This document shows positions 3,010-56,990 of a DNA stretch of 64,000 nt, piece by piece. The position numbers and the translations under genes were made by a program. The notes under the pieces were generated by a model. The model did no database searches, had not been told where the DNA came from, and saw only the letters and a program-made list of their open reading frames with translations. Location of the stretch: the NCBI GenBank assembly GCA_043824495.1, contig JBDRSV010000024.1:91056-155055 (forward strand). Reading direction: 5' to 3'. Source of the DNA: Candidatus Aenigmatarchaeota archaeon (GTDB taxonomy: Archaea > Aenigmatarchaeota > Aenigmatarchaeia > QMZP01). The first letter of the stretch is position 1, and the number at the start of each line of letters is the position of its first letter.

Positions 3010-3030
3010 TTGTCTAATTAAAGGGATATA
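3010..3030 (-). repeat. Junction motif copy a (reverse complement TATATCCCTTTAATTAGACAA)
   Basis: Read directly from the sequence. GC-rich block on the left, AT-rich r-protein operon on the right. Confidence 0.9.
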
Positions 3031-3110
3031 GAAAGAAAAAATTAGAAATGTTCAGACATATAAACCTTATAAACTATAATGCTCAATAATTGGTATAATT
3101 CGAAAGGAAA

Positions 3111-3458
3111 ATGACATATATGAAAGCTAAGACAGATATTGGGGTTGGTTTGAAGCCACCTGAGCATAAATGTGAAGAAGAAAACTGTGCATGGCACGGG
3201 AAATTGCCTGTCAGAGGCAGAGTGTTTAGAGGTAGAGTTAGGGCCGCTAAATCTCAGAAAACAGCTATAATCGACTGGGGATTCCATAGATTCGTGCCTA
3301 AATACGAGAGATATGAGAGAAGAAAATCAAGAGTGACTGTTCATAATCCTGGCTGTATGAATGCTAAAGAAGGGGATAATGTTGTAATAGCAGAATGCAG
3401 ACCAATTTCAAAGACAAAGCACTTTGTAATTGTTGGTGTGCAAAAGGAAGGAAAATAA
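3111..3458 (+). CDS. rps17: 30S ribosomal protein S17
   Basis: KCEEENCAWHGKLPVRGRVFRGRV...TVHNPGCMNAKEGDNVVIAECRPISKTK is archaeal S17-like. Operon context. Confidence 0.9.
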   Translation: MTYMKAKTDIGVGLKPPEHKCEEENCAWHGKLPVRGRVFRGRVRAAKSQKTAIIDWGFHRFVPKYERYERRKSRVTVHNPGCMNAKEGDNVVIAECRPISKTKHFVIVGVQKEGK

Positions 3459-3459
3459 T

Positions 3460-3858
3460 ATGAAAGCGATATCAGCCAATATGACAAGGTGTTTGCCTGT
3501 GGGAGCAAGAATTAATTGTGTAGATAATTCAGGAGCAAAAATAATTAGAATAATTTCTGTAAGAGGATTTAAAGGTATACGAAGAACAATTCCTTCAACT
3601 GGTATTGCTGGTTTATTCCAGTGTAAAGTACTCAAAGGAAATGAGAAAGTTCGACATCTGGTTCATAAAGCTGTTATTGTAAGACAAACAAAAGAATTCA
3701 GAAGAGCAGACGGAACAAGAGTGTCATTCGAAGATAATGCAGCTGTATTAGTGGATGACAAAGGGGATCCAAAGGGTAATAGCATCAAGGGTCCTATTGC
3801 AAGGGAAGTTGTTGAGAGATTCCCAACAATTGGTAAGATTGCAAGCACAGTAGTTTAA
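3460..3858 (+). CDS. rpl14: 50S ribosomal protein L14
   Basis: INCVDNSGAKIIRIISV... is L14-like. Start at ATG 3460 just after the S17 stop. Confidence 0.9.
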   Translation: MKAISANMTRCLPVGARINCVDNSGAKIIRIISVRGFKGIRRTIPSTGIAGLFQCKVLKGNEKVRHLVHKAVIVRQTKEFRRADGTRVSFEDNAAVLVDDKGDPKGNSIKGPIAREVVERFPTIGKIASTVV

Positions 3859-4211
3859 TGGTGACTGACATGACAGATAACATAGATTTCAGTGAATTCC
3901 AAAAAGTTAATATAAGAATAGGAACAATTGAAGCAGCTGAGCCTGTTGAGAACACAGAAAAGCTGTTGAGGCTTCAAATAAGTTTAGGCGAAGAGAAGAG
4001 ACAAATTGTTTCTAGTATAGCAAAGGATTTCACACCTGATCAACTCATTGGTAAGCAAATACCAATACTTACCAACCTGGAGCCAAAAAGTTTCAGAGGA
4101 ATTGAAAGTCAGGGTATGATCTTACTGGTCGTAGAGGAACAAGATGGTTCAGAAAAGCTCACATTAATAACGCCTGAAAATAAAGTTCCTACAGGATCTA
4201 CAGTCAGGTAA
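3858..4211 (+). CDS. tRNA-binding domain protein (Trbp111/CsaA/MetRS-C-like)
   Basis: FQKVNIRIGTIEAAEP...KLLRLQISLGEEKRQIVSSI...NLEPKSFRGIESQGMILL matches the OB-fold tRNA-binding domain pattern. Confidence 0.7.
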   Translation: MVTDMTDNIDFSEFQKVNIRIGTIEAAEPVENTEKLLRLQISLGEEKRQIVSSIAKDFTPDQLIGKQIPILTNLEPKSFRGIESQGMILLVVEEQDGSEKLTLITPENKVPTGSTVR

Positions 4212-4216
4212 GAGTA

Positions 4217-4561
4217 ATGTCAAAAAAGAGAACAGTTGCAATATTGGTGGGGATATTAATGTTGTTATTGGTATTCCTGGTCGTACTACCGCTATCATTC
4301 GACTCTTCATTGGGAGCTGACTCATTACCTGATTCAGCTTTTTATGAAATTGAATTAGCAGGTGAGAACATAGCATGTGGTATATCACTTGATAGAAAAG
4401 CATGTTTGCTTGAACTTGCTAATGAAAGAGACCAAGAAGTGGAAGAGTTAAATATAAAACAAAGAAGATTATTCGATGAAGATGAAAAGCAACAGTATGA
4501 ATTGCTCATAATTAAAACTGAAAACGCAGCTTCGAGATTAAGAATCGAGGCACTAAAATAG
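4217..4561 (+). CDS. Hypothetical membrane-anchored protein
   Basis: N-terminal TM helix (VAILVGILMLLLVFLVVLPL) with a charged, coiled-coil-like C-terminus. Confidence 0.5.
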   Translation: MSKKRTVAILVGILMLLLVFLVVLPLSFDSSLGADSLPDSAFYEIELAGENIACGISLDRKACLLELANERDQEVEELNIKQRRLFDEDEKQQYELLIIKTENAASRLRIEALK

Positions 4562-4569
4562 GAGATCAA

Positions 4570-15240: not shown

Positions 15241-15264
15241 TATATCCCTCTAATTAGACAATAT
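15241..15264 (+). repeat. Junction motif copy b (TATATCCCTCTAATTAGACAATAT)
   Basis: Read directly from the sequence. AT-rich on the left, GC-richer block I2 on the right. Confidence 0.9.
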
Positions 15265-15267
15265 AAA

Positions 15268-15298
15268 ACAATCAGGTGCCGAGTGCACACCTAATTGT
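15268..15298 (-). terminator. Imperfect hairpin downstream of the last gene of block I2
   Basis: ACAATCAGGTG (15268-15278) pairs with CACCTAATTGT (15288-15298) with one mismatch. On the gene strand it is followed by TTTATATT. Confidence 0.5.
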
Positions 15299-15315
15299 CC
15301 TTGCCAATCCTCTTC

Positions 15316-16422
15316 TCATCTCAGCTTCAAAAACGCTATATGAGGTGCAGGCAGCCACTTGACTAACGATTCAGTCCAAGAGAAAGACCATTTCAGCTTC
15401 TTCTTCATCTCGTGAACCTTCATACATTTCACCGAGACTAGATTCCAGTTCAGGATGCCGAAAGCTGTGCCCAAGAGACCACCGACAAGCATAACGAAGC
15501 CCTGTCCTACAAGATCCATTCCGGCGGAGGAAACGAGAAATTTGTAAGCGAGAAATCCGCCCAAGACTCCGTCAACTGCACACAACACTCTCTGGAAACA
15601 GTGAACCATCTTGATGATGTTCCAGATAAACTGACCGATAAATGTGAGGACCACCGAGATGCACACCAAGACAACGAAAATGACGGTCAGTGCAGTGAGA
15701 ATTGGGTACCAGACAGAAAGTAGAAGCAAACTGAAGAGAATGTATCCCATCGCGTTGAGATACCCGAGTTTTATTTCTCGGCGGTTCTTCTCCTCAAGGA
15801 AATACCTCCTTCTTAACACACCGATGTCGTATTTTTGGTCCGTGTGTCTGCTTATTCCGAGAGCCTCCCCAATACTCTTATAGTTGTACAAAACGTCTTC
15901 CCCGCTAGCGTCTTTCTTATCGACCATCATGAAAGGATAGAAGAACCTTCCGCGATCACGACTTCCAACAAAAGCGAGGAAAGAAAGAACGCCGGAAAAG
16001 ATCACAACACAGGCACCAGAGAGCGCCAACAGAAGAATGCTGCTGAGAGCGAGTTGAAGGATGTTCAGTGTTTCAGCATCTGCGAAAAGACCGGAAAATA
16101 TGTGATGTGCTGGCCACAAGCCGAGCACAAGACTCGGAAAAAGGAACGGGTGTGGCTTCGAGCATAACCAGTCCTTGGCTTTTCCGTAGTTGTCTCTGAT
16201 ATAAAACGGCCAAGTTCCGATATCATCCAACATCTCTCCGAGCATCACTTGGATCGCTTTGGCCACCTCACGGAGGTCGTAACCAAAATAACCAGCTGCT
16301 CCGCCGGCCAGGAAAGCAGCAACCCACATGTACAACTTGTCCGGCATCAGCCACATGGCAGTTGCACAGAACACGATGCCTCCAATGAAGCATCCGATTC
16401 CGATCTTCATCCAATCTTTCAT
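15316..16422 (-). CDS. Hypothetical polytopic membrane protein
   Basis: 368 aa with multiple hydrophobic helices. No family recognised. Confidence 0.6.
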   Translation of the reverse strand: MKDWMKIGIGCFIGGIVFCATAMWLMPDKLYMWVAAFLAGGAAGYFGYDLREVAKAIQVMLGEMLDDIGTWPFYIRDNYGKAKDWLCSKPHPFLFPSLVLGLWPAHHIFSGLFADAETLNILQLALSSILLLALSGACVVIFSGVLSFLAFVGSRDRGRFFYPFMMVDKKDASGEDVLYNYKSIGEALGISRHTDQKYDIGVLRRRYFLEEKNRREIKLGYLNAMGYILFSLLLLSVWYPILTALTVIFVVLVCISVVLTFIGQFIWNIIKMVHCFQRVLCAVDGVLGGFLAYKFLVSSAGMDLVGQGFVMLVGGLLGTAFGILNWNLVSVKCMKVHEMKKKLKWSFSWTESLVKWLPAPHIAFLKLR

Positions 16423-16489
16423 GGCGAAAATCTCCTTCTCGTTGTATTTCTTTGTTTATAGTTATCGTCCTAGAATTAATTCAAAACAA

Positions 16490-17041
16490 TCATATCTGCA
16501 AAGGTTCAAGCAGATACATCAGACTTCGGTCTCGTAATTCTGTCCTCTTATAAGGAGGGAGATCTATGAGACAAAGACTGGAAATACTCACGTGCATGGT
16601 TTGATACTTGGTTTCGTCTGCTTGGTACATTCCCGTAAAGATTATATTATTCAGGACAAACCCGGAAACTACTGTCCAGATCCAGAATGCCATCCATCCA
16701 TCGTACAAGAAGACGCTGGCAATCGCTGAAATGATTGCACCCACTGCGAGAACACCTACCTCAAAGAGAAGCATCGTAAAGATATCTCCCACGGGGTCGT
16801 TTTTGTCCTCTTCCCACCAATCCTCCATGACGAGTTCGTGGATAATCATGTCAATGAGATTCTGCCTGTTCTGCATTTTCTCGTGGTAGGCTATGAAACG
16901 AGTTGGTTGACGAATGTTGTGCCAGATGATCAATCCAATTGGCACCCAGATGACTGCTGTAGTGACAAGCAGCCAGAGAACTACTCTAGTTTCCATGTCC
17001 CCTCCAGGATTGATTGTTAGAAAAAATACTAGTATAATCAC
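16490..17041 (-). CDS. Hypothetical membrane protein
   Basis: 183 aa with about 4 TM helices and a GTG start at 17039-17041. Confidence 0.5.
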   Translation of the reverse strand: MIILVFFLTINPGGDMETRVVLWLLVTTAVIWVPIGLIIWHNIRQPTRFIAYHEKMQNRQNLIDMIIHELVMEDWWEEDKNDPVGDIFTMLLFEVGVLAVGAIISAIASVFLYDGWMAFWIWTVVSGFVLNNIIFTGMYQADETKYQTMHVSISSLCLIDLPPYKRTELRDRSLMYLLEPLQI

Positions 17042-17221
17042 TCTCGTTAATTGACATTTCTGTCTTTCGTTGTCGTAGAGTATTGATTCCTAAATTACAG
17101 ATGATGACTTTACCTCGAACAAGAATCTTGTGCCAGGTGCTAAAAGTTGTCAGCGATGATAAATGTGGAACATGATGCATAGAATTTAACCTAAAATTTT
17201 ATAAACCTATACAAAACCTTT

Positions 17222-17244
17222 TTATACCTCTTAATTGACAATAT
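17222..17244 (+). repeat. Junction motif copy c, divergent (TTATACCTCTTAATTGACAATAT)
   Basis: 18 of 22 positions match copy b in my ungapped alignment. Lies 5 nt upstream of ATG 17250. Confidence 0.65.
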
Positions 17245-17249: not shown

Positions 17250-17639
17250 ATGAAGAAAAAAGCAAAGAGGACCACAAAGAAAACAGTGAAAAAACCAGTC
17301 AAGAAAATAAAAATAGAAAAGAGAGTAACACCAAAACCAAAAAAAGAAGAGAAAATTAAATGTCCTTATTGTAAGAGTTCTAGAGTGGTTTGGAGAGGAT
17401 ATAGATACAACGAAAAGACTGACAAGCACTTAAGATTATGTAACAACTGTAAGAGAAAGTTCACAAAAAGAGACGAGTTCTTCCGTATGAGATTCGGTGA
17501 AGAAGAGATAAAAAGAGCTGTGGAATTATACAAGAAAGGTTATTCTTCTGCAGAAGTAGTTCAGAACCTGAAAAGAAATCATGGAATAAAGGTTTCAAGA
17601 TGGACTGTGATCTGTTGGCATAAGAGATACACTAAGTAA
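17250..17639 (+). CDS. Zinc-ribbon plus HTH protein, IS1 InsA-like / transposase N-terminal-domain-like, without a catalytic domain
   Basis: Lys-rich N-terminus, CPYCKS...LCNNCKRKF (CxxC...CxxC), then GYSSAEVVQNLKRNHGIKVSRWTVICWHKRY (HTH-like). AT-rich backbone composition. Confidence 0.6.
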   Translation: MKKKAKRTTKKTVKKPVKKIKIEKRVTPKPKKEEKIKCPYCKSSRVVWRGYRYNEKTDKHLRLCNNCKRKFTKRDEFFRMRFGEEEIKRAVELYKKGYSSAEVVQNLKRNHGIKVSRWTVICWHKRYTK

Positions 17640-17659: not shown

Positions 17660-17681
17660 TATATCCCTTTAAATGGACAAT
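17660..17681 (+). repeat. Junction motif copy d (TATATCCCTTTAAATGGACAAT)
   Basis: Read directly from the sequence. A T-run lies upstream and GC-rich block I3 lies downstream. Confidence 0.9.
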
Positions 17682-17686
17682 GCAAA

Positions 17687-17723
17687 GGGAGAGGTGCAGT
17701 ATTCCACATCTGCACACTCTCCC
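17687..17723 (-). terminator. Imperfect hairpin downstream of the T9SS-domain gene
   Basis: GGGAGAGGTGCAG (17687-17699) pairs with CTGCACACTCTCCC (17710-17723), with mismatches. Confidence 0.5.
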
Positions 17724-17754
17724 ACCACATCACCTTTTCAGGCTTTGCAGATTT

Positions 17755-19629
17755 TTACTTCAGAAGCGTCATCTTTTTGCTTTCCGTCAGGCTGGCCGTT
17801 TGCAACCGATAGAAGTACATACCGGACGCGACGGCCTTACCGTAGCGGTCGGTTCCGTCCCAGCTAACCTGATGTGTTCCTTCGGGCTGGGACCCGTTGA
17901 CGAGAGTGGCAACGTTGCGGCCGAGGATATCAAAGACCTCTAGCTTTACGTCTCCTCCCTGAGTCAACTGATAGGAAATCACGGTTCCGGCGTTGAAGGG
18001 GTTCGGGTAGTTCTGGTTCAAGCTGAATGATGTAGGAACGGCTCCTGTTGTCTTGTACGCGATGTTCAGCGTACCTAATGGAATCCACCCAGCCGGAACT
18101 GTCCGGCTGTTGTTGATCTCGTCAGCTATCGTTTTGGCCAACTCGTGATCGCCGAATGGATCGTCGATCAAGTTGTCGCAGTATGTTACCGCCTGTGACA
18201 CAGTCGCGCCGTCATCGCTAATCACAGCGGTTTGTGCCAGTTTGCCGCTAGCGACATTGAGTAGCAAAGCCATGAGTTGCTGTCTGGCTCGATCAATCAT
18301 GTCAACGCTGCCCTTGAGGTTCAGCAACGTCTTCGCGACTTCGAGCTTGTCTTCACAAAGATCCGACACGGGTGGATCGTACACGACGACCTCGTTCACT
18401 GCGTTCGAGTTGAAGTGGCCCGCGATGAGGTCGAGATAGCTACACAGAGTTGAAGCATCGATTTGCGCGCGGCCATTCCCACCAGTAGCGACGCCGACGT
18501 TGTGTTTCCAGAAGCCGATTGTTCGTTGTTCTCCAGCGTCTGACGGGCATCCCAATTCAAAGTCGATTTGGGCTGTGCCTTCACAATCGAGATCGACGGA
18601 CTGTTCGCTCGGAAATGCCGTATACCCGAGGGGGCCAACAAATGATACCATGTAGCTGGCCTCACCCGGGAGGTTCTCGAAATCGTAGTAACCGGCTTCA
18701 TCAGTCACAGCCGATTCTACAAGTACACCGGTGGCATCGAAGACATCAATCGTGATACCAAGAACAGAGCAGTCAGCACTCAGTGTGCCCTCAATTGCGG
18801 CGAAGCATTCTTCCTCTCCACCTCCGCATGCACACGTTCCATCTTCCACCTCAATGGCGGTGATGGTGTTGTCGTAGGCGTCCTTTGACCAGACGACGGT
18901 CAACGGCGCGAAGTTGATGACGTCGCATTCGAGATCCTCATCCCGACCACCGATCGTCGCGAAGTCACTGAGATACACGCCCGTTGTCTTGTCAATGCGA
19001 ACGATGTTGCCCAGACCATCGCGCCCGATGTAAAGGGTGTTCCCCGTCCCAACAATAACACCACTTATTCGATCCAGTGTATTGCCGGCCGCGTCGGTCG
19101 GATACAACGTTCCCAGATAGGCTCCCGAGCCCGCATCGAAGTGGTCAATGCCCGTTGATACATCATCGGAAACCCAGACACTGTTATCCGTCGCATCAAA
19201 GCCAATGCCGTCGATGAAACAGAAGCCCGGTGTTACCACAGAAAACTGGAAAGTGGCTACGCCGGTGGTGGGATCGATGAGATACACGTTCGCCGGACAT
19301 TCGTTGTCACTGCCTCCCCAGATCATGTTGCGCGTATTGTCCCATGCAATAGCGCCGATCGAAACTGGTGTGCCATCCGGTTTGAAAATGGAAACGAAGC
19401 CGAGATCGGTGCCGAATTTGTCTATCGAGTAGAGAGTTGGGTCGAAAGAGTTGGTGTAGAAAATCACACCATCACATCCAACTGCAACACCGATACCGAC
19501 ACCAGACGAGCTTGGAACAGGAACTGTGACGTTCGTGATGACATCACCGGGAGCTGCCATTGACGTAGCGGTGATAGCGGTGAAGAGGCAGAACACAACA
19601 AGCGCAGTGAAAGCTGTGAGACGCTTCAT
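17755..19629 (-). CDS. Secreted beta-propeller/CarboxypepD_reg-like protein with T9SS (Por) C-terminal sorting domain
   Basis: Signal peptide MKRLTAFTALVVFCLFTAITATSMA. The C-terminal NYPNPFNAGTVISYQL...VFDILGRNVATLV...GMYFYRLQT...KKMTLLK is the classic T9SS CTD pattern. GC-rich. Confidence 0.85.
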   Translation of the reverse strand: MKRLTAFTALVVFCLFTAITATSMAAPGDVITNVTVPVPSSSGVGIGVAVGCDGVIFYTNSFDPTLYSIDKFGTDLGFVSIFKPDGTPVSIGAIAWDNTRNMIWGGSDNECPANVYLIDPTTGVATFQFSVVTPGFCFIDGIGFDATDNSVWVSDDVSTGIDHFDAGSGAYLGTLYPTDAAGNTLDRISGVIVGTGNTLYIGRDGLGNIVRIDKTTGVYLSDFATIGGRDEDLECDVINFAPLTVVWSKDAYDNTITAIEVEDGTCACGGGEEECFAAIEGTLSADCSVLGITIDVFDATGVLVESAVTDEAGYYDFENLPGEASYMVSFVGPLGYTAFPSEQSVDLDCEGTAQIDFELGCPSDAGEQRTIGFWKHNVGVATGGNGRAQIDASTLCSYLDLIAGHFNSNAVNEVVVYDPPVSDLCEDKLEVAKTLLNLKGSVDMIDRARQQLMALLLNVASGKLAQTAVISDDGATVSQAVTYCDNLIDDPFGDHELAKTIADEINNSRTVPAGWIPLGTLNIAYKTTGAVPTSFSLNQNYPNPFNAGTVISYQLTQGGDVKLEVFDILGRNVATLVNGSQPEGTHQVSWDGTDRYGKAVASGMYFYRLQTASLTESKKMTLLK

Positions 19630-20175
19630 GGATTTTTATTCCTTAGGTTGTGAGGGAAATATGACCCTCCGGGTTTGTTTTTCGATTAGTTTCTGATTGT
19701 TTGTCGTTTACCACGTTTCCAAGTTAAGGTCCGCGAATCGCTATTTTCATTGGCATCCTCTCTTTGGGTTAATGTTGTCCGCACAAATTGCGGGATTAAA
19801 AGAAGGAAAGACACAAAAGATAGAGTATGTCTTATGTAGACTGAGAGTAAAATCATTCGAAGAATAAAGCTAATACTATTAAAACAAACATGCATGTTTG
19901 ATGTGTTTCTTTTCATGTTTTTTGTGTTAGCCAATGTACCGTTTCTATGGTTAATTGGATTGATTGAGTTGCAATCAATACAAATTTAAATGATGTTCGA
20001 ATGAGTAGCATGATTTAAATTGTATACAAAAATTGACGTTGATTCATCGTCGTTTTTTTGTGTTTTGGTATTTTTTTTGATTCTAGCTTGTCGCTTTTGT
20101 CAAGTCTTTAACTCAAGTATATAGCTTACAGGTATTTAAATGTTTTCTAACACATTTTTTTTAATTTTCTTTCTT

Positions 20176-20197
20176 TTATCCCTTTAAATAGACATAT
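20176..20197 (+). repeat. Junction motif copy e (TTATCCCTTTAAATAGACATAT)
   Basis: Read directly from the sequence. A T-run lies upstream and GC-rich block I4 lies downstream. Confidence 0.85.
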
Positions 20198-20206
20198 AAA
20201 AAGGCA

Positions 20207-20259
20207 AACGGGCGAAGATTTGGAGCCAAACTCTTCTTGATGTCTCACCTCCGCCCGTT
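20207..20259 (-). terminator. Compound hairpin next to motif copy e
   Basis: AACGGGCG (20207-20214) pairs with CGCCCGTT (20252-20259), with an inner GAAGATTTGG/CCAAACTCTTC stem. On the minus strand it is followed by TGCCTTTTTATAT. Confidence 0.4.
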
Positions 20260-21168
20260 AAATGCCGTTGTCCGGCCTATCAATTTACCCGCCGGTTAGG
20301 TGAGCACATGTGCTCGTGTCCCAGAGGCGCATGTTTTCATGCCCTCCTTTGCCGGGTTCTTACGCGAACGTGCTGCTTGACCGAGATAATGTAGCTGCCA
20401 GATTCCCCACAACCTTGTTATTGGTGGAACCGCGACAGCGGTCGGTCCAGTCCGTATGCATCGTAGCCTCACTTGGTGAAGGACTGCGAATCAAGAGACG
20501 GGGATTCAGAAGAATCCCCGTCTCACGAGTTGACGGTTGGTACGAGATATATCAAAGGAAGTCTTTATGCCATTGGGTGCATTCCGAAACCTTTAGCCTC
20601 GTCCGTCTCCGAGGGATCCTATCAAAGGTTTCATAAAGGAAATTTCATGGACCTCGTTACGATAGGATCGGAGTGGCGTAAAGCCACGGCCAGAACCTCG
20701 AGGTCCCCCAGGATAAGATCACCGTTTGAATATGAGTCAGCGGTGAACGTAAGGGTGCTGGCGATTCTTCTTCGCATTCAAACCCTCCAGGGAACACTTC
20801 GTAATTTGTGTTGTCAGCGGCTGTTTACGAATCGGCGGTGATCGTTTCCACCACGGTACATGTCGGCGTGGTGACAAACGATGAAGAAGCGACTTCAAAA
20901 CGCGCGCGGCCATTGCTCGGCGGCGGCGAATGAGCCCAGGCATTGACGGCGGTCGCGGCGGTATTCATCCAGGAAGCGACCACTGGTGACCCGCGAAGGG
21001 TCGGTAATCGGTTCATAGAGCAAGCTCCATTTCTTCCGATAGGAAAATTCCAATCCACTTTACAAACTCTCGCCTAAACAGAAAGTATTGTCACATAACT
21101 TTCCGTCGCAAAAGAGAATGTGAAGAGGAAACAATTTCGTACACCTCGTCAAGAGATCGTCTCCATTT

Positions 21169-21534
21169 TCACCCTACATGGGCTAGGCGAGAGGATAGAC
21201 CAGTTGCTGATAGAGATGTAGAGGGAACCGTTTTCATCCGAAGATCTCTCCCGTCCCTCAGGGAGTAAGTTGCTCGTCCACCAGGTTCCCATACCAAGGG
21301 AGCTGGCAACTCTGCCATTCTCTCTATCCGACTCTCTGTTGTCATCGCCACTACGGCAACAACTCTTAGCCTATCCGGCGTAGGATTATGAGAGTGTAGA
21401 GCGAATTCCTCGTTCCATGTTTGTTCTGTATCGCTGCCTGTTATGATATCCAATCCTGAAAACGGGATTGGGTCAGCGGTATAAACAATACAGGAACCAT
21501 ATATGAGGTAGCAGAGTGTCATGATTCCCAGCAT
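21169..21534 (-). CDS. Possible small secreted protein
   Basis: AAGGAG lies 5 nt upstream of the ATG, with a hydrophobic N-terminus MLGIMTLCYLIYGSCIVYTA. It is the only ORF in block I4 with a good RBS. Confidence 0.4.
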   Translation of the reverse strand: MLGIMTLCYLIYGSCIVYTADPIPFSGLDIITGSDTEQTWNEEFALHSHNPTPDRLRVVAVVAMTTESRIERMAELPAPLVWEPGGRATYSLRDGRDLRMKTVPSTSLSATGLSSRLAHVG

Positions 21535-23161
21535 GACAACTCCTTACAAGGGCACATGGTTATATGGTAAATGCTCTCTCCGTCAACAAATCGTGCCCTC
21601 TAAGACATGTTTAGGAGAGAAAGGCGACAACTCATGAAGTGTTCTTCAGGTGGACCCGTCATCACTGTTATTGCGTTGACGGCCTTCTCCTTGACCCGGA
21701 CTTAGACGTGTGGCTTTCGGTGTTTTCGCGGCGCGTTTCTGCTGTTTTGGACTACGCTTCTTGTTGCTCGGAAGCCCGTCTCGGGCACCACCGTGACACG
21801 TCATGAAAGACCTCGTTTGTGAGGAGTTCAGTTCAAGCTTGTGCTGGAACTGTTTGGAACGAGGAATTGTTACTCTTTACGGCGAGCGATTGTGTGTCAT
21901 CGTAACTCCTTGACAATGGTTTCCACAAGCTCCAAAATAAAAAAGAGCTGTTGTTTTCAAATTCAGTTGGGAATCTCCTAGCCCGCCCCCAGAACTGACT
22001 AGAGGAGATCCCCAACTTTTGTACAGCGCACCCCGTGCATTGTTTTCAGGGTGGAGGGGCCCGGCGGTCAACTGAGCCCCTCACTGGACGAATCGGTCAC
22101 AGATAACATGTTACGCATTACCGACTCGAAATCTATGCCACGGCAGTAGATGGAAGTGGTCGCATCTACCGCCGGGCTTCACGACGTTGTGCATTTTGTC
22201 GCCTTCAGCCTTACACAACGCCGTTATTTCCCCACCCACAGGGAATTTAATATCGCGGGGCCTCACTCAGGAGACCCCGCTTCCGTTGGGTTTACTACCG
22301 AATTGTTCGGTAGCGTTCTTCCACGACAGACATACGCACATGCGCACGTCTTCATTTCTTTGAGGACCTACTCATCTCCGATTTGAGTAGGTCCTCGGCT
22401 CCCCACAACCCCCCGATCAGCACCGGGAATTTTTTTGAGGGGAAATCTGAGCAGATATCTCAGACTCCCCTCCCGTCAGGTCTACCGACCAGCACTTCCG
22501 GTTGGACGCCGGAAATTCTTTATTAGAAGGGGTTTCCCCTCTCCAAGAAACCCCTTCCTCTTCGGCGTAGCGCGTCTCACGCGCTTTAGTGCATCGATCC
22601 CCACCGATCAGGTAAAACCCTTGGATGGTTCTCTCCCCGAACCCCCACTGAAATATTTTGGAACCCCTCATAGATCCCCGTAATCTCCGAGAGGTTCCGA
22701 CAGCAGCACCATACAAATGGGACTACCGTGACAATCAAAAATACCGGAATCCACCGCGTCAGAAGAGGATTCCGGTATTCTACATCGCTGGTTGTGTTGA
22801 GAGCTTACCCCTTACTGGTCTTAACGAGTATGTTACGTCGGACTTCCTTTCACCAAATATACGGGTCACTACAGAATACCCGATCGATCCGCTTTGTTGT
22901 CTTAATCTCACCAGCGGATAGTGACGCGGTTACAGCCAGCGATTTCGCCTTTATACAACAGGCGTCTCCAAACCAAAATGGAAATTGGAGTTGTTGCTTC
23001 CACACTTCCGGATTTCCCCCTCCGGTAAACTCTAAGGTACTGATAGGTGACCGCTCGTGTTTCTTGTGTTCGCAATTGCCGATTGCATCAAGCTCTTCGT
23101 AGATCTAGATCTGGAAGTAATTAGCAAACGATCACAATAAACAGACAACTGGGAGAAGTCC

Positions 23162-23788
23162 ATTTCTACCAGTACCTGGATTTTCTAACCCTCGGGAGGT
23201 GTGTACAAGCCTAAGCAGAGTTTGTCCTGTTGAATTGGCCCCGAGGGTAAGTGGCCTTCCGGAAGAGAATTGGTGAGGTCCTGTAACAGAACTCTATCTC
23301 ATTCCGGGGTAAAGCTCAAGGCACAGCCAGAAGGAGACGTATTACCTTGAGAAGTTGGTCTCCCGAGTGAAGAAATTCGAGATGTCCCATCGATGAAGGA
23401 CATCTCTTCTCCACTCGGGCTCATTCGTCAGCCTGGAAGGAGAAGTGCAAGAGTTTTCGCGCAATTACTCTCTCTCCTCCCGGGAAATTTATGACCTCCT
23501 GGTCCGAAACTTGTGCCGCGGTAAACCAGAAGGCGTAACTGCTAGGCTATGTGACGGCCACAGCAGTAGGGATCGAATCCAATACACGAAAGACAGCTAA
23601 GACTAACTCTGTCTCGTGTGGTTTACGAGTAAAATTCAGAAATCGATAGTCTTCGGCCTCTTCGAGGGAAACTGCTTAAGCGCTTAATTGCAGCGCGTTA
23701 TGTTTCCTGGTAAGTGACCTGTTCTCTAGGATGTACCGAAGGCTAACTTAGTTAGTCTCGGGAAATTCGCGTGTGATTGGTAGAAATG
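23162..23788. ncRNA. Candidate ~630-nt structured RNA (family unknown, strand undetermined)
   Basis: CATTTCTACCA (23162-23172) is complementary to TGGTAGAAATG (23778-23788). Internal helices include CCCTCGGG/CCCGAGGG and GAGATGTCC/GGACATCTC (23379-23406). No ORF. Confidence 0.35.
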
Positions 23789-23949
23789 AAACATGAAATG
23801 TCCTTATATATAAATGTAATTTAATTACTTAAATAGGTTGATGGATAGCTTTAAAAAGGTACTATTAAAATTATTTTTTTGTGAAGGGATCGATATACCA
23901 AGTGCTTCCAAAAATAAAGAGTAGAAAAAAATAAGAGTGAAAAAAGCAA

Positions 23950-27353: not shown

Positions 27354-27377
27354 CGGAAACTTCTGGGAGGGATTGTC

Positions 27378-32612: not shown

Positions 32613-32665
32613 TTCCAAATGAGTTCATGTGGTTTGATTTCTTGACTAGGTGGGCTCATTTGGAA
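32613..32665 (+). promoter_or_regulatory. Conserved intergenic hairpin element, copy 3
   Basis: TTCCAAATGAGTTCAT...(TTGACT)AGGTGGGCTCATTTGGAA, with an 11 bp outer stem. Confidence 0.45.
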
Positions 32666-32757
32666 TTGAGTTGTAGTAGAACCATAACCCATTCACGACC
32701 TTTTGTCGACCCTGTCTGATATCAGTTCAGGGAAGAATCTAAAGGAAGGAGAATTCA

Positions 32758-34749: not shown

Positions 34750-34830
34750 GCGTGTAGTTATCATTCACACCCCGCCTGGATTCAATTCCAGGCGGGGTTG
34801 ATCATGAAATAAAGAGAAGGGGAGTGTACC

Positions 34831-35835: not shown

Positions 35836-35973
35836 AACCAACATTATCCTTTCAACATTTGATGGAGGACGGGTCATGAAACTAGTCTTAAATCGTAGGC
35901 ATCTTATAGATCCCGCCAGTGTCATTGGGCCACGCGTGAACTGGTTGTTCTCCTGAATGGCCAAGAGGTTCAG

Positions 35974-36222
35974 GTGCGTCCTATCGACCAGACGATAATT
36001 CTGATCGGACGCGATCCGGAATGTGACGTAATACTCGATAATCGCGCCGTCGACTTCTTCCATGCTCACATTGATTTCGGCGAGAATTTTGTAGTAATTG
36101 ACAACGTGTCACTCAACGGCACGTTTGTCAACGGAGAAAAGGTCGAGAAAGCGGTTCTCCGTCCTGGTGATGTGATCACAATAGCCAGGTATGAGATTCA
36201 CATCCGGTCCCTCCGGAAGTAG
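35974..36222 (+). CDS. FHA-domain protein (start uncertain; domain extends upstream of the annotated GTG)
   Basis: IILIGRDPECDVILDNRAVDFFHAHI...NVSLNGTFVNGEKV...PGDVITIARYEIHI is FHA-like. The frame is open back to 35899. Confidence 0.65.
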   Translation: MRPIDQTIILIGRDPECDVILDNRAVDFFHAHIDFGENFVVIDNVSLNGTFVNGEKVEKAVLRPGDVITIARYEIHIRSLRK

Positions 36223-36250
36223 ACGACGCGATGGTAGTCTTGTTCCAATT

Positions 36251-36279
36251 CCGTACAGGTGTTTACAAAATCTGTGCGG
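36251..36279 (+). terminator. Imperfect hairpin after the last gene of block I5
   Basis: CCGTACAG (36251-36258) pairs with CTGTGCGG (36272-36279) with one mismatch, followed by GATTTGTATT. Confidence 0.45.
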
Positions 36280-36286
36280 GATTTGT

Positions 36287-36308
36287 ATTGTCTAATTAAA
36301 GGGATATA
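36287..36308 (-). repeat. Junction motif copy f (reverse complement TATATCCCTTTAATTAGACAAT)
   Basis: Read directly from the sequence. GC-rich block on the left, AT-rich DNA on the right. Confidence 0.9.
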
Positions 36309-54642: not shown

Positions 54643-55014
54643 TCATGTATAAAGTGGTTTTAGATCATCTACAGGATACACACCAAGAGTTTTAATGTAG
54701 GTTCTAGTTCCTTTTAGTGAATAAGCGTGTCTGATGTGGACACCCAATCTTCTTTTAAATCCACCAAGTGTCGACTCTGCGCTAACTAGTTTATCAGAAA
54801 ATTCATCTAGATCATATTCTGTTCCAAATGAAGCCAAATCGTCTCTTAATCTCCTACTTCTCTCTCTAGATGATATATTTATTTCTGCTGGATTTGTGTA
54901 ATCTATTCCATGTTTTCCACAGAAATCGGATATCTGGGTAAGTGTAAGAAGATCATCCAGAAGAACTCCACTAGCTTCTCTTAGAAAAGCTGCTGTGTTA
55001 TCGTTATTTGCCAT
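54643..55014 (-). CDS. Hypothetical protein
   Basis: Start moved to the internal ATG (MANNDNTAAF...) to avoid overlap with the upstream gene. Confidence 0.4.
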   Translation of the reverse strand: MANNDNTAAFLREASGVLLDDLLTLTQISDFCGKHGIDYTNPAEINISSRERSRRLRDDLASFGTEYDLDEFSDKLVSAESTLGGFKRRLGVHIRHAYSLKGTRTYIKTLGVYPVDDLKPLYT

Positions 55015-55055
55015 ACGGAGTAATAATAAGAAATAATTTAAATAAGTTTTCCATG

Positions 55056-55337
55056 CTAAACAGAACCTATAATGATTAGAGCTACTACGATAACCAAAGC
55101 TAGCATAAGCATAAATATCTGTTTCCATGAACTGAAAAAGAATTTTGCCATGAAGAATAATATTATCAGTATTAGTACACCGGCTAGAATAGTTCCTTCT
55201 ATACCTATGTTACTAACAGGGTTGAGAGAACCCATTAATTCTAGAAATAGACCAAAGATACCACTCAGTGTACTCATAGTGTTCCCTATAACAAGTTGTA
55301 TCATTTCAAGTATCACAATCAATGGAGCATCTGCCAT
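55056..55337 (-). CDS. Small membrane protein
   Basis: Three hydrophobic helices. Confidence 0.45.
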   Translation of the reverse strand: MADAPLIVILEMIQLVIGNTMSTLSGIFGLFLELMGSLNPVSNIGIEGTILAGVLILIILFFMAKFFFSSWKQIFMLMLALVIVVALIIIGSV

Positions 55338-55362
55338 TGATTAATAATTAGTCTGAGTGCAT

Positions 55363-56547
55363 TTATTTCTTTGTGAGGATCTCAACTATGTCTCCATCCT
55401 TGAGCTCGTACTCTGCACCCACTTTCTTACGATCTGTCTTCATTCCACCTATGAATTTATCTGCTAAATCTGTGTGGATTTTTCCAGCGAACTGTTTCAA
55501 ATGAGTTCCTCTAGGAACTAAATGTACGTCTGGTAGAACATTTCCATCTTTATCTGTCATTTTACCTATGTTTGTAACTGGATAAACAGCTATCATATCG
55601 AGTGTTTCAAAAACAGTATGATTCAATATATTTTGTATACCAGTAGATTCATATTTAACAAGAATTTTTTCTTTTATGAACTCTAAAGCTGAGATTTGTT
55701 TTGGTGTTAGTCTATGCGCAACAACTATCTCAAAGTCTTTATCTCCTGGATTATATTTGATGAAACCATGCTCATTAGCTTCTCTTAAAGCTAGTTCACA
55801 CTCGGCTGTACATGGAATTATATGTTTATGTTTATCATGTAAAAGTTTGAAATTCTTCTGACCATCCTCTGTATCTATTTTATTTCCTGCTATCACAATA
55901 GGTTTGTTTCTTTTTCTTAGCTCACTTACTAAATGTATTAAATGATCTTCTTTTGTGTGCACTTCTATGTCTAATTTCTTAACTTCGTCTCTAACAGTTT
56001 CATAATCTAATTGTAAACCTGACAATTGTTCGTAAATTAAATCTTCTAGTTTTGCATCAGTTGTTTCAGCTTTTTTAGAGAGTTGTTTCCAGTTGTTTTT
56101 TAATATTTGAAACATCCAATAATCTATTTCTCTAGGTAAGAAATGGATATCTTCTTCAGGATCATGCGAACCTGCTTTTACAGGATTACCTTCCCCGTCT
56201 GTTCCTCCAGATAGATCAACTACATGAATTAGTCCTGATGCTGTCATAATGTCTGTTAGAAATTGATTACCTAAACCCTTTCCCTTATGTGCATCCGGAA
56301 CAAGTCCTGCTATGTCTATAAGTCTGACTGGTATGTATCTAATTCCGTCAATACATTTAGAATTCTTAGGCTTGCAAGTAACTCCTTGTGTCTTACAAGG
56401 ACATTCTGCTGTTACGTAAGCAACACCTTGGTTAGGTTTGATTGTTGTGAATATTCTGTTGCTTATTTCTATGTCTATCAGAGTAGCTGCTTTGAAGAAT
56501 GTTGATTTACCTGTGTTTGATTTACCTACAACCCCTATTTGGATCAT
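55363..56547 (-). CDS. Obg-like GTPase/ATPase (YchF/Drg-type) with C-terminal TGS-like domain
   Basis: GVVGKSNTGKSTFF (G1), DIAGLV (G3), AGNKID (G4) and a C-terminal ...LKDGDIVEI. Confidence 0.8.
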   Translation of the reverse strand: MIQIGVVGKSNTGKSTFFKAATLIDIEISNRIFTTIKPNQGVAYVTAECPCKTQGVTCKPKNSKCIDGIRYIPVRLIDIAGLVPDAHKGKGLGNQFLTDIMTASGLIHVVDLSGGTDGEGNPVKAGSHDPEEDIHFLPREIDYWMFQILKNNWKQLSKKAETTDAKLEDLIYEQLSGLQLDYETVRDEVKKLDIEVHTKEDHLIHLVSELRKRNKPIVIAGNKIDTEDGQKNFKLLHDKHKHIIPCTAECELALREANEHGFIKYNPGDKDFEIVVAHRLTPKQISALEFIKEKILVKYESTGIQNILNHTVFETLDMIAVYPVTNIGKMTDKDGNVLPDVHLVPRGTHLKQFAGKIHTDLADKFIGGMKTDRKKVGAEYELKDGDIVEILTKK

Positions 56548-56582
56548 ATGATATATTTATTTAGTAAATTTAAAAACGATTC

Positions 56583-56951
56583 ATGGGCTTCAATTCCGGT
56601 AACCAGTTCAGAATTGCAGGTATACTTTTGATATTGGAAACTATAGCTCTTCTATATTTCTCTATCGTTCCGTATGCATCTATAGACACTGGGATAGAAG
56701 CATTGCGCCTCGGAGACTTCGAACACTTGATGGCTTATCTCATCTATGCTCTTTTAGCTGAGCGAGTATTAAGTCAGACAAAATTCAAGAAGCATAGAGT
56801 TATACTAGCATTCTTAATTGCAGCAGCTTTTGGTGGAATAAATGAGGTTATACAATCTTTCATTCCTTTGAGAGAAGCAGATATGATTGATTTAGCCTTT
56901 GATACTGTTGGTTCTGTCATCGGTAGCTTTTTGCTTGGTCTTAAGAAATGA
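56583..56951 (+). CDS. VanZ-like membrane protein
   Basis: GGINEVIQSFIPLREADMIDLAFDTVGSVIGS. Confidence 0.65.
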   Translation: MGFNSGNQFRIAGILLILETIALLYFSIVPYASIDTGIEALRLGDFEHLMAYLIYALLAERVLSQTKFKKHRVILAFLIAAAFGGINEVIQSFIPLREADMIDLAFDTVGSVIGSFLLGLKK

Positions 56952-56966
56952 TTTTTTATAACCTTC

Positions 56967-56990
56967 TATATCCCTTTAAATAGACAATAT
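56967..56990 (+). repeat. Junction motif copy g (TATATCCCTTTAAATAGACAATAT)
   Basis: Read directly from the sequence. VanZ stop plus a T-run on the left, GC-rich block I6 on the right. Confidence 0.9.

What the first reader, a model, noticed from the sequence alone, without database searches (positions are those of the whole stretch)
3010..56990. One ~22-24 bp motif marks every AT-rich/GC-rich junction and always reads into the GC-rich block
Copies of TATATCCCTTTAAWTAGACAAT lie at 3010-3030(-), 15241-15264(+), 17222-17244(+, most divergent), 17660-17681(+), 20176-20197(+), 36287-36308(-) and 56967-56990(+). By eye I found no convincing copy away from a compositional boundary. On the 5' side of each copy the DNA is AT-rich and archaeal-type, in four copies (a, d, e, g) with a T-run 10-20 nt upstream. 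Immediately 3' of each copy except copy c (which is followed by an AT-rich ORF), a GC-richer bacterial-type block begins. There are two sequence subtypes: TAATTAG (3010, 15241, 36287) and TAAATRG (17660, 20176, 56967). The blocks are unrelated to each other and encode no integrase or recombinase. A short sequence shared by all junctions of unrelated foreign blocks is what an attachment or target site, a one-sided element end, or a dedicated capture site would look like. It is also what a repeat-mediated assembly chimera would look like.
Basis: seen in the sequence. Interest (0 to 1): 0.9.

Follow-up and report, generated by a model that had tools for sequence, protein, structure and literature searches.

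The report
Solo transposon ends flank captured bacterial DNA
The repeated 22-base motif is the leftover end of an IS6-family jumping gene in a tiny DPANN archaeon, and each copy sits exactly where a block of recently acquired bacterial DNA ends, which suggests how such archaea may take up genes from bacteria.

Summary
There are six strong copies and one weak copy of TATATCCCTTTAAWTAGACAAT and no others in 64 kb. Each strong copy lies at an AT-rich/GC-rich step in the same orientation.

The backbone is an Aenigmatarchaeota (DPANN) chromosome at 34% GC. The 46-52% GC blocks are bacterial-type DNA. The M32 peptidase in block A is 72-84% identical in protein, and 82.7% in DNA, to bacterial genes, several labelled Zixibacteria.

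The motif matches the terminal inverted repeat of a complete IS6-family insertion sequence found in other contigs. That element has the end GGATACTGTCCAATTAAAGGGATAT, a Zn-ribbon-HTH ORF, a DDE_Tnp_IS240 ORF and a 7-8 bp target duplication. The window holds only solo ends that lack the GG tip. It also holds a standalone gene (17250-17639) homologous to the transposase's N-terminal DNA-binding domain, with a motif copy on each side.

The outer tip of every strong copy abuts the T-tract of a hairpin terminator that closes a block. In the five coding blocks all genes run in one direction. At the Zn-ribbon locus the copies form a direct array of four here and six in one relative.

A chimera is unlikely, because a k=31 assembly spans every junction.

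I infer IS6/IS26-like end-joining to foreign DNA. The catalyst and the order of events are not shown.

The parts
3009..3030 (-). Copy a, a solo IS6-type inverted repeat. Its outer tip faces block A. Its inner side faces the S17-L14-L24-S4e ribosomal operon, which starts near 3120.
   Evidence: 20/20 nt at 95% identity to the IS left end in L069; synteny
15241..15262 (+). Copy b. Its outer tip faces block B. Its inner side faces three AT-rich genes that read away from it (14476-15171, 13604-14410, 13084-13614, all on the minus strand).
17221..17242 (+). Copy c, a divergent variant that forms the promoter of the Zn-ribbon-HTH gene. TTTTTATA lies 22-23 nt before the ATG at 17250. The same variant occurs in L090 and L100.
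17250..17639 (+). Standalone Zn-ribbon + HTH protein of 129 aa. It is homologous to the N-terminal DNA-binding domain of IS6-family (DDE_Tnp_IS240) transposases and has no DDE domain.
17660..17681 (+). Copy d, 21 nt after the stop codon of the Zn-ribbon gene. Its outer tip faces block C. The same position is occupied in L090, L093, L085 and L100.
20175..20196 (+). Copy e. Its outer tip faces the non-coding block D.
36287..36308 (-). Copy f. Its outer tip faces block E. Its inner side faces a possible short SD-led GTG ORF near 36393 (seen only in the flank sequence) and the Cas4-like gene at 36936-37589.
56967..56988 (+). Copy g. Its outer tip faces block F. On its inner side the VanZ-like gene (56583-56951) converges on it.
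2965..3004 (+). Terminator-type hairpin plus T-tract that ends block A, directly before copy a.
15265..15301 (-). Terminator-type hairpin plus T-tract that ends block B.
17687..17723 (-). Terminator-type hairpin that ends block C (the 70 nt before the repeat fold at -33 kcal/mol).
20207..20259 (-). Hairpin plus T-tract at the repeat-proximal end of block D.
36247..36283 (+). Terminator-type hairpin that ends block E.
56992..57032 (-). Terminator-type hairpin that ends block F.
1..3008 (+). Block A. It continues about 0.93 kb to the left of the window and is about 3.9 kb in all. It carries an M20 peptidase, an M32 carboxypeptidase and a 163-aa lipoprotein-like gene. It lies in the gap between Rpp29 and S17 of the archaeal r-protein operon, after an AT-rich methyltransferase gene.
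15263..17100 (-). Block B, with two membrane-protein genes (368 and 183 aa). The far boundary is approximate.
17682..19800 (-). Block C, a 624-aa secreted protein with a type IX secretion C-terminal sorting domain. The far boundary is approximate.
20197..23790 (.). Block D, 3.6 kb at GC 0.50. It is non-coding and rich in hairpins. Its position corresponds to the gene-free stretch between the Zn-ribbon gene and HerA in relatives.
27000..36286 (+). Block E, eight co-directional genes with no Pfam family above the curated cutoff and no PHROGs or NCBIfam hit among those scanned. The 663-aa protein has no homologue in the search of 5.8 billion sequences. The far boundary is approximate.
56989..59250 (-). 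Block F, three to four co-directional genes including a 300-aa protein with a signal peptide. The far boundary is approximate.
23950..26515 (-). HerA-like ATPase (DUF87, 680 aa) and an overlapping 182-aa gene. These are conserved neighbours that bound the variable region on its far side. Their role is unknown.

Best explanation
**What it is (shown).** The motif is a relic of the terminal inverted repeat of an archaeal IS6-family insertion sequence. This is the left-end type, which carries a TATA box. The window holds seven solo copies that lack the GG tip. It also holds a standalone gene for the transposase's N-terminal Zn-ribbon-HTH DNA-binding domain, and copies c and d flank that gene.

**How the copies sit (shown).** In every strong copy the outer tip of the repeat is joined, within 2-9 T-rich bases, to the hairpin of an intrinsic-terminator-like structure. 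That structure closes a block of recently acquired, un-ameliorated bacterial-type DNA. Block A is most similar to genes labelled Zixibacteria. The five coding blocks each carry co-directional genes. The sixth block (D) is non-coding.

**How the junctions arose (inferred).** The junctions were probably made by IS6/IS26-type chemistry acting on a single repeat end. That could be replicon fusion into foreign DNA, insertion of a circular 'end plus passenger' unit next to a resident end, or end-mediated adjacent deletion. In each case the preferred target would be the T-tract after a hairpin. This would explain four things:
- the orientation is fixed;
- each block has only one motif;
- each coding block looks like a whole transcription unit;
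- at the Zn-ribbon locus the copies form direct arrays of end, passenger, end, passenger.

**What the copies do now (inferred).** Whatever its origin, each copy probably works as a small boundary module. Terminators face it from both sides. Its TATA box can start transcription of the gene on the inner side. An example is the S17 ribosomal operon, which block A has cut off from its upstream genes. The Zn-ribbon-HTH protein probably binds the motif. That binding, and the identity of the catalyst, are not shown.
For: **Link to IS6.**
- L069 holds a 1,010-bp element with the left end GGATACTGTCCAATTAAAGGGATAT and a right end ending in ACAGTATCC. It has a 100-aa Zn-ribbon-HTH ORF, a 203-aa ORF that hits DDE_Tnp_IS240 (32.4 bits, cutoff 27) and a 7-8 bp duplication TTTGGAC(G).
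- A second copy is in L077. Left ends occur in L046 and L078, with flanks that diverge exactly after GGATAC.
- Window copies d, f and a match positions 7-28 of that end at 95%.
- The end fits the published IS6 signature of GG tips, cTGTt and caaa, and 8-bp repeats (PMC7986276).

**The Zn-ribbon gene.**
- The 129-aa protein has 519 relatives at E<=1e-3. Many are 280-315 aa long with the match at the N-terminus followed by DDE_Tnp_IS240.
- It is 42% identical to the L069 transposase ORF.
- The motif flanks this gene on both sides in the window, L090, L093 and L100. It lies next to the gene in L001, L024, L069, L077 and L078.

**Junction geometry.**
- All six strong copies have a hairpin ending 2-9 nt from the repeat. 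The 70 nt before each fold at -17 to -33 kcal/mol, against a block mean of -16.
- All genes in the five coding blocks are co-directional, with their 3' ends at the motif.
- In 37 copies from 25 sources the outer flank is GC-richer in 31 and more folded.

**Arrays and small derivatives.**
- Copies b, c, d and e are direct repeats.
- L085 has six direct copies immediately after its Zn-ribbon gene.
- Two-end mini elements of about 55-60 nt occur in L030 and L042.

**Hotspot.** The flanking genes are conserved (ArgRS-ZnR and HerA in the window and L090; ZnR and HerA in L093). The DNA at the outer tip is different, and cannot be aligned, in the window, L090 and L093.

**Foreign origin.** The M32 gene is 82.7% identical in DNA to a bacterial contig, and its 74%-identical homologue sits among bacterial complex I genes. 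Block A splits the conserved gap between Rpp29 and S17.

**Promoter capacity.** The TATA box lies 20-21 nt before leaderless start codons in L020, L024 and L093.
Against: - No DDE catalytic domain or remnant of one exists in the window. I could not search the rest of the genome for one.
- The window copies lack the GG tip that IS6 ends carry, so they may no longer be substrates for a transposase.
- Blocks A, E and F show no second repeat at their far ends. Classical IS6 replicon fusion would leave two full IS copies.
- IS6 elements are not known to prefer terminators as targets.
- Some passengers in the L085 array are native tRNA genes. The motif therefore follows transcription units in general, not only foreign ones.
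- In L001 the motif precedes a gene in the sense direction, with no hairpin.
- The order of events is unresolved. The repeat may have been there first, may have arrived with the block, or may have inserted later.
- The L069-type IS loci were found with the motif pattern itself. Their similarity to the motif inside those 18-19 bases is therefore by construction. The independent support is the position at the IS tip, the extra flanking bases and the homologous protein.
Confidence: 0.55

Rival explanations
1. **Secondary insertion.** The foreign blocks entered by some unrelated route. The repeat, as a miniature or one-ended derivative of the IS moved in trans, later inserted into the hairpin plus T-tract targets. 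In this AT-rich genome only bacterial-type terminators offer such targets. The motif would then mark the blocks but would not have brought them in.
For: - A full IS copy in L077 also lies 10 nt from a hairpin.
- Two-end mini elements lie between convergent gene ends in L030 and L042.
- Native tRNA genes lie within array segments in L085.
- GC-rich terminator hairpins were seen only at the block ends, not after the backbone genes whose 3' flanks I read.
Against: - The foreign DNA stops exactly at the terminator in 6 of 6 cases. Native AT-rich DNA begins directly on the inner side of the repeat. A simple insertion into an existing block would leave foreign DNA on both sides unless a deletion came with it.
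- The copies are single ends and lack GG tips, which makes them poor substrates for ordinary transposition.
Confidence: 0.2
2. **Regulatory boundary element only.** The motif is an exapted binding site of the Zn-ribbon-HTH protein that overlaps a TATA box. It acts as a promoter, operator and insulator, and is kept after transcription units by selection. Its presence beside foreign blocks would reflect the need to insulate native genes and restart their transcription. It would not reflect any recombination role.
For: - The TATA box is at the right distance from leaderless start codons in both orientations (L020, L024, L093).
- The regulator's own promoter is a variant of the motif (copy c).
- T-runs or hairpin plus T-tract face the motif from both sides.
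- Copy a is placed where it could restart the S17 operon after block A.
Against: - Selection alone does not explain how near-identical 22-30-nt units reached many unrelated sites, always with the same polarity relative to the foreign DNA.
- Copies d and g lie between convergent genes, where there is nothing to drive.
- No BRE-like purine run lies beside the TATA box.
Confidence: 0.15
3. **Dedicated capture platform.** The Zn-ribbon protein and its site act as an integron-like locus with an unknown recombinase, perhaps involving the conserved HerA-like ATPase and its 182-aa partner. It would capture hairpin-ended nucleic acid. That could be single-stranded DNA, or cDNA of terminated bacterial transcripts. 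Either would explain why every coding block is a whole co-directional transcription unit ending a few T's after its terminator stem.
For: - Direct arrays begin at the Zn-ribbon gene (window b-e; six copies in L085).
- The content at the outer tip is hypervariable while the flanking genes are conserved.
- The coding blocks run from about 100-400 nt upstream of the first gene to a trimmed T-tract after the terminator stem.
- In the window, the cassette nearest the Zn-ribbon gene (C) is intact while the next one (D) is non-coding.
Against: - No integrase, reverse transcriptase or other recombinase was found among the window ORFs scanned.
- The conserved sequence lies on one side of the hairpin only, unlike attC.
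- Copies a, f and g are scattered, not in the array.
- Nothing shows that this archaeon has access to bacterial RNA.
Confidence: 0.08
4. **Assembly chimera.** Archaeal and bacterial contigs were joined at a shared short repeat.
For: - The blocks have bacterial composition and homology, and share a repeat at one end.
- The one break in the Logan assembly lies at the edge of a block (17094-17112).
Against: - The shared repeat is 22-28 nt, shorter than k=31. Two Logan contigs are nonetheless 100% identical to the window across all seven motif sites.
- The far end of each block has no repeat.
- Archaeal gene order resumes after each block, as in relative L090.
- The same junction type appears in independent metagenomes such as L047, L037 and L085.
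Confidence: 0.02

Closest known systems
IS6/IS26-family insertion sequences (Varani et al. 2021, PMC7986276)
   Same: - The repeat carries GG...CTGT...AA(A) in the full-length relative.
- The full-length relative makes a 7-8 bp target duplication.
- Its transposase has a DDE_Tnp_IS240 domain and an N-terminal Zn-finger plus HTH domain.
- Miniature derivatives exist.
- The ends carry promoter elements that drive neighbouring genes.
   Different: - The window has no transposase catalytic domain.
- The repeats are single, mostly in direct orientation, and lack the GG tip.
- The DNA-binding domain survives as a separate gene. Its synteny is conserved, so it appears to be vertically inherited.
IS26 translocatable units and pseudo-compound transposon arrays
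   Same: - Unrelated passenger segments each abut the outer tip of a directly repeated element.
- New units are preferentially placed next to a resident copy, which gives arrays of element, passenger, element, passenger.
   Different: - The repeated unit here is about 26-30 bp, not a whole 0.8-kb IS.
- The coding passengers are whole transcription units that end at a terminator.
- The scattered copies (a, f, g) have a repeat at one end only.
Integrons, including those reported in Archaea (Ghaly et al. 2022, PMC9668308)
   Same: - Cassettes are co-oriented.
- Each is followed by a hairpin-containing site.
- They are stacked beside a conserved gene.
- The system would be a route for cross-domain gene recruitment.
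   Different: - There is no IntI tyrosine recombinase.
- There are no R/L boxes on both arms of the hairpin.
- The hairpins are ordinary terminators with unrelated sequences.
- Cassettes can hold up to eight genes.
One-ended transposition (Tn3 family) and one-ended rolling-circle elements (IS91/ISCR). Cited from my own knowledge, not tested here.
   Same: There is a single conserved end at one junction and a variable other junction.
   Different: - No HUH or Tn3-type transposase is present.
- The conserved end here faces the foreign DNA with its outer tip, not its inner side.
Terminator-targeting elements such as class C group II introns. Cited from my own knowledge, not tested here.
   Same: The junction lies directly after an intrinsic terminator's stem and T-tract.
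   Different: There is no intron RNA (no Rfam hit at E<=1 in 19600-24000, none at gathering score in the rest of the window) and no reverse transcriptase.

Membership tests
IS6/IS26-family insertion sequence | Encodes a DDE transposase of the IS240/IS6 type | tested here: not met
   A tblastn search with six DDE-containing relatives and the L069 DDE ORF finds only the N-terminal domain, at 17361-17636, and no DDE remnant in the window. The full-length relative in L069 does have one.
IS6/IS26-family insertion sequence | N-terminal HTH DNA-binding domain (with a zinc finger in some clades) cognate to the ends | tested here: met
   The protein at 17250-17639 aligns to residues about 2-100 of 280-315-aa proteins that carry DDE_Tnp_IS240. 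It is 42% identical to the L069 IS ORF. Actual binding to the motif was not tested.
IS6/IS26-family insertion sequence | Two short terminal repeats in inverted orientation bounding the element | tested here: not met
   The window copies are solo. Copies b, c, d and e are direct repeats, and no partner lies at the far ends of blocks. The feature is met in L069 and L077.
IS6/IS26-family insertion sequence | GG at the tips with internal cTGTt and caaa motifs | tested here: inconclusive
   The L069 end GGATACTGTCCAATTAAAGGG fits. The window copies keep (A/G)TA(T/C)-TGTC-TAWTTAAA but have T's where the GG should be.
IS6/IS26-family insertion sequence | 8-bp direct target duplication | not testable with these tools
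   Solo ends have no second flank to compare. The L069 full copy has TTTGGAC(G) on both sides.
Integron | IntI tyrosine recombinase next to the array | tested here: not met
   No integrase or recombinase domain was found in the 60 window ORFs scanned against Pfam.
Integron | attC sites: imperfect palindromes with conserved core sites on both arms | tested here: not met
   The conserved sequence lies only on one side of the hairpin. The hairpin sequences are unrelated to one another, and no GTTRRRY core is present. No attC covariance model was available.
Integron | Array of co-oriented cassettes, each followed by the site | tested here: inconclusive
   Copies b-e in the window and six direct copies in L085 form arrays. 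Copies a, f and g are scattered.
Archaeal TATA-type promoter | An 8-nt TATA box about 20-23 nt before the start of transcription | tested here: met
   TTTAAATA or TAATTAAA lies 20-21 nt before leaderless start codons in L020, L024 and L093. Copy c has TTTTTATA 22-23 nt before the ATG. Only sequence spacing was examined, and no transcript data exist.
Archaeal TATA-type promoter | Purine-rich BRE directly upstream that sets the direction | tested here: not met
   The flanks are TATATCCC on one side and ATTGTC on the other. The direction is therefore ambiguous.
Intrinsic (hairpin plus T-tract) terminator at block ends | GC-rich stem-loop followed by a T-run, downstream of a stop codon on the gene strand | tested here: met
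   Met in all six strong copies. A bacterial relative of the M32 gene has the same kind of terminator.
Repeat-mediated assembly chimera | A shared repeat at least as long as the assembler's k at the junctions, and no independent support | tested here: not met
   The repeat is 22-28 nt. The k=31 Logan contigs span all motif sites at 100% identity. Read-level coverage could not be tested.

The most novel reading that the evidence does not exclude
Aenigmatarchaeota may carry a domesticated, IS6-derived gene-capture locus. It would consist of a standalone Zn-ribbon-HTH protein and its roughly 26-nt site, and would work like an integron without an integrase. Whole foreign transcription units, including bacterial ones, would be joined by their terminator hairpin and T-tract to the outer tip of the site. 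They would stack in direct arrays and be seeded elsewhere in the chromosome. The fact that the coding blocks run from the 5' leader to a trimmed terminator leaves room for a single-stranded DNA or RNA/cDNA intermediate.
Probability: 0.2. Interest if true: 0.85.

Novelty: new variant of a known kind. Interest (0 to 1): 0.6.

Why it matters
DPANN archaea have tiny genomes yet carry many bacterial genes. How those genes get in is largely unknown. This window holds six un-ameliorated GC-rich blocks in 64 kb of an Aenigmatarchaeota chromosome. One of them sits inside the core ribosomal-protein operon. Each ends at the same transposon-derived site.

If the site takes part in acquisition, it gives a concrete and testable route for bacteria-to-archaea gene transfer. 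It would also be a prokaryotic case of a transposase DNA-binding domain and its scattered ends being reused as a genome-wide boundary and promoter system.

Even on the most modest reading, the motif is a practical marker for recent foreign DNA in these genomes.

Tried and rejected
1. **GC-rich blocks as rRNA, tRNA or other structured RNA genes of an AT-rich archaeon.** Rfam finds nothing at gathering score in the window and nothing at E<=1 in 19600-24000. ARAGORN finds no tRNA. Five blocks are clearly coding.
2. **The motif as the organism's general promoter consensus.** PWM and nhmmer scans find no weaker copies at other genes.
3. **Viral or plasmid origin.** The ten block proteins scanned have no PHROGs or NCBIfam hits. 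The motif occurs once in 2.9 million viral contigs, which I take as chance. Block D has no match in plasmids or phages.
4. **A hidden integrase, reverse transcriptase or DDE remnant.** None was found.
5. **A second, degenerate repeat at the 5' end of each block.** None was found. A by-eye partial match at 17041-17058 did not score.
6. **Block D as a decayed pseudogene or as a homologue of the gene-free stretch in relatives.** It shows no codon periodicity and no alignable similarity. It remains unexplained.
7. **Strain variants that differ just after the motif.** L100/L101 and L102/L103 turned out to be identical sequences with different gene calls.
8. **Empty-site comparison for copy a.** The nearest M32 relatives are all in bacterial contexts without the motif.
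9. **TIRs of a 40%-identical full-length IS6 relative (L105/L106).** They show the IS6 GG..CTGTT signature but were too distant to compare with the motif.
10. **Chance matches in the collection scans.** The Sphingobacterium family and the L055-type family are coding sequences and were set aside.

Full report
**1.

A search for TATATCCCTTTAAWTAGACAAT with up to three mismatches finds six copies, where shuffled sequence gives none. They lie at 3009-3030(-), 15241-15262(+), 17660-17681(+), 20175-20196(+), 36287-36308(-) and 56967-56988(+). A position weight matrix adds only the divergent copy c at 17221-17242(+) and nothing else above 12 bits. A gapped profile search adds nothing convincing.

The window alternates between a 34% GC backbone and six blocks of 46-52% GC. 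Each strong copy touches a block on its 3' side.

**2. Backbone and blocks**

The backbone is an archaeal chromosome. It carries S17, L14, L24, S4e, L5, S8, RNA polymerase subunit D and ArgRS. NCBI labels the contig as a Candidatus Aenigmatarchaeota MAG of 171,815 bp.

The blocks are bacterial in type. Their genes have Shine-Dalgarno sites and signal peptides with lipoboxes. One 624-aa protein has a type IX secretion sorting domain.

| Evidence on block A's M32 carboxypeptidase | Result |
|---|---|
| Protein identity to the nearest homologues, several labelled Zixibacteria | 72-84% |
| DNA identity to a 58% GC contig | 82.7% |
| Context of the 74%-identical homologue | among bacterial complex I genes |

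Block A is about 3.9 kb (M20 peptidase, M32 peptidase, a lipoprotein-like gene). It sits in the gap between Rpp29 and S17 of the ribosomal-protein operon. The blocks are unrelated to one another. The largest protein of block E has no homologue in the search of 5.8 billion sequences.

**3.

In the five coding blocks all genes run one way. That direction is opposite to the motif's 'reading' direction. On the gene strand the order is:

- stop codon;
- GC-rich hairpin;
- 2-9 T-rich bases;
- (A/G)TA(T/C)TGTCTAWTTAAAGGGATATA;
- AT-rich backbone.

The motif therefore follows an intrinsic-terminator-like structure at the 3' end of each block.

**4. Not a chimera**

Two contigs of an independent k=31 Logan assembly of run SRR26275509 are 100% identical to the window across all seven motif sites. 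They break only at 17094-17112. The repeat is shorter than k. The far ends of the blocks share no repeat. Archaeal gene order resumes after each block as in the relative L090. I could not test read coverage.

**5. The motif is a lineage-wide element**

Exact-pattern scans of GTDB genomes and JGI metagenomes returned chance hits in bacterial coding sequence. They also returned a clear excess in Aenigmatarchaeota and 'uncultured archaeon' contigs, including genomes of 51-58% GC.

In 37 non-redundant archaeal copies:

| Measure | Outer flank | Inner flank | Test |
|---|---|---|---|
| GC content | richer in 31 of 37 copies, +7 points on average | | p=2e-5 |
| Folding energy of 55 nt | -13.1 kcal/mol | -6.3 kcal/mol | p=1e-5 |

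On the outer side there is usually the 3' end of a convergent gene. On the inner side there is either a gene start or a gene end. L047 shows a clean single-gene example at a different chromosomal site in a related genome.

**6. Identity of the motif**

The AT-rich ORF after copy c (17250-17639) is a Zn-ribbon plus HTH protein. Its homologues lie next to the motif in many of the fetched loci.

An exhaustive profile search finds 519 relatives at E<=1e-3. Many are 280-315 aa long, with the match at the N-terminus followed by a DDE_Tnp_IS240 (IS6-family) catalytic domain.

In L069 the motif is part of the left end of a complete element of about 1.0 kb:

- left end: GGATACTGTCCAATTAAAGGGATAT;
- right end: an imperfect inverted copy ending in ACAGTATCC;
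- ORFs: a Zn-ribbon-HTH ORF and a DDE_Tnp_IS240 ORF;
- target duplication: TTTGGAC(G).

L077 holds a second copy. In L046 and L078 the flanks diverge exactly at the GGATAC tip.

These features fit the published IS6 definition: 8-bp repeats, GG tips, cTGTt and caaa motifs, known miniature derivatives and promoter-bearing ends (PMC7986276). Window copies d, f and a match positions 7-28 of that end at 95%.

The window itself has no DDE domain or remnant of one. Its copies have T's where the GG tips should be. They are solo, tip-degenerate ends.

**7. The Zn-ribbon locus**

The motif flanks the Zn-ribbon gene on both sides in the window (c and d), L090, L093 and L100.

The order ArgRS, Zn-ribbon gene, motif, variable gene-free DNA, HerA-like ATPase, 182-aa gene is shared by the window and L090. 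L093 shares the part from the Zn-ribbon gene to HerA. The DNA at the motif's outer tip differs in each and cannot be aligned.

In the window this locus holds a direct array:

- copy b, then block B;
- copy c, then the Zn-ribbon gene;
- copy d, then block C;
- copy e, then block D.

The relative L085 has six direct copies immediately after its Zn-ribbon gene. They separate segments of 0.7-1.1 kb, and one segment contains tRNA genes. L030 and L042 carry two ends back to back, a mini-element of about 55-60 nt.

**8. Promoter capacity**

The centre of the motif is a canonical archaeal TATA box.

- It lies 20-21 nt before leaderless start codons in L024 and L093 (forward direction) and in L020 (reverse direction).
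- Copy c uses a shifted TTTTTATA 22-23 nt before the ATG.
- Copy a is placed where it could restart the S17 operon after block A.
- Copies d and g lie between convergent genes, so a promoter role cannot explain every copy.

**9. Interpretation**

Shown:

- The motif is derived from an IS6-family end.
- A cognate DNA-binding domain survives as a conserved standalone gene.
- The outer tip of each strong copy is fused to the terminator at one end of a block of foreign DNA, always with the same polarity.

Inferred: the junctions were made by IS6/IS26-like end chemistry with a preference for T-tracts after hairpins. The route could be replicon fusion, insertion of a circular 'end plus passenger' unit next to a resident end, or end-mediated adjacent deletion. 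The IS26 literature describes arrays of unrelated passengers, each abutting directly repeated IS copies, and preferential insertion beside a resident copy.

Points against this reading:

- no catalytic transposase in the window;
- no GG tips;
- no second repeat at the far ends of blocks A, E and F;
- native tRNA genes among the L085 array segments.

The rivals are set out separately: later insertion of the repeat into terminators, a purely regulatory boundary element, a dedicated integron-like or RNA-based capture system, and a chimera.

**10. Verdict**

The finding is real and biologically meaningful. 'Chimera' can be set aside. An attachment site in the sense of site-specific recombination is not supported.

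I rate it as a new variant of a known kind: IS6/IS26-type passenger capture, here reduced to solo ends plus a standalone DNA-binding domain, at bacteria-to-DPANN transfer junctions. The 3.6-kb non-coding block D and its positional counterparts in relatives remain unexplained.

Noticed in passing
window 20197-23790 (block D); L090 10322-12614; L093 10334-12830: A 2.1-3.6 kb gene-free, hairpin-rich stretch always lies between the motif after the Zn-ribbon gene and the HerA-like gene. In the window it has GC 0.50, no codon periodicity, no Rfam hit and no plasmid or phage match. The stretches in the three genomes cannot be aligned. It could be a long non-coding RNA or old captured DNA.
   Followed up: partly
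window 29328-29378 and 30239-30289 (inside block E): A 51-nt intergenic repeat consists of a GGGGATCC...GGGATCCCC hairpin followed by TCAACYTGACAATWAAC. Its tail resembles the motif (nhmmer E=0.21). It lies in the opposite orientation to copy f. This may be chance or a bacterial REP-like element.
   Followed up: partly
window 17094-17112: This is the only break between the two Logan k=31 contigs. It lies between the 5' end of block B and copy c. It could be a graph branch caused by strain heterogeneity at this hotspot.
   Followed up: no
window 47035-49560 (-): The myo-inositol-1-phosphate synthase gene is interrupted by an intein with a LAGLIDADG endonuclease domain. The orthologue in relative L090 is 360 aa and lacks the intein.
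   Followed up: partly
window 36936-37589 (+): A solo Cas4-like PD-(D/E)XK nuclease gene lies just inside copy f. No CRISPR array or other cas genes were seen in the window.
   Followed up: no
window 39330-42056 (-), 42194-43213 (+), 44028-45038 (+): The AT-rich island between block E and the inositol synthase gene holds three things of note. These are a type IIG restriction-modification enzyme (Eco57I/MmeI-like), a protein matching the candidate defence family PDC-M38A, and an unrelated DDE_Tnp_1 transposase. The relative L090 has only 3 kb here.
   Followed up: no
L085 2333-6257: Six direct motif copies (2333, 3270, 3304, 4327, 5480, 6236) follow the Zn-ribbon gene of a 51% GC relative. Each is followed by (T/C)(A/G)CAAAA(A)(A) and then a hairpin. 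One segment contains two tRNA genes.
   Followed up: partly
L069 8166-9171; L077 649-1657: Complete IS6-family insertion sequences of about 1.0 kb occur in AT-rich (about 32% GC) contigs that I take to be DPANN-like. The transposase is split into a Zn-ribbon-HTH ORF and a DDE ORF. This may reflect a frameshift or a disrupted gene.
   Followed up: partly
window 13084-15171 (-): Three AT-rich genes for secreted or membrane proteins, together with block B, separate ArgRS from the Zn-ribbon gene. In relatives L090 and L085 those two genes are directly adjacent. This AT-rich segment is therefore also an insertion, sitting on the inner side of copy b.
   Followed up: partly
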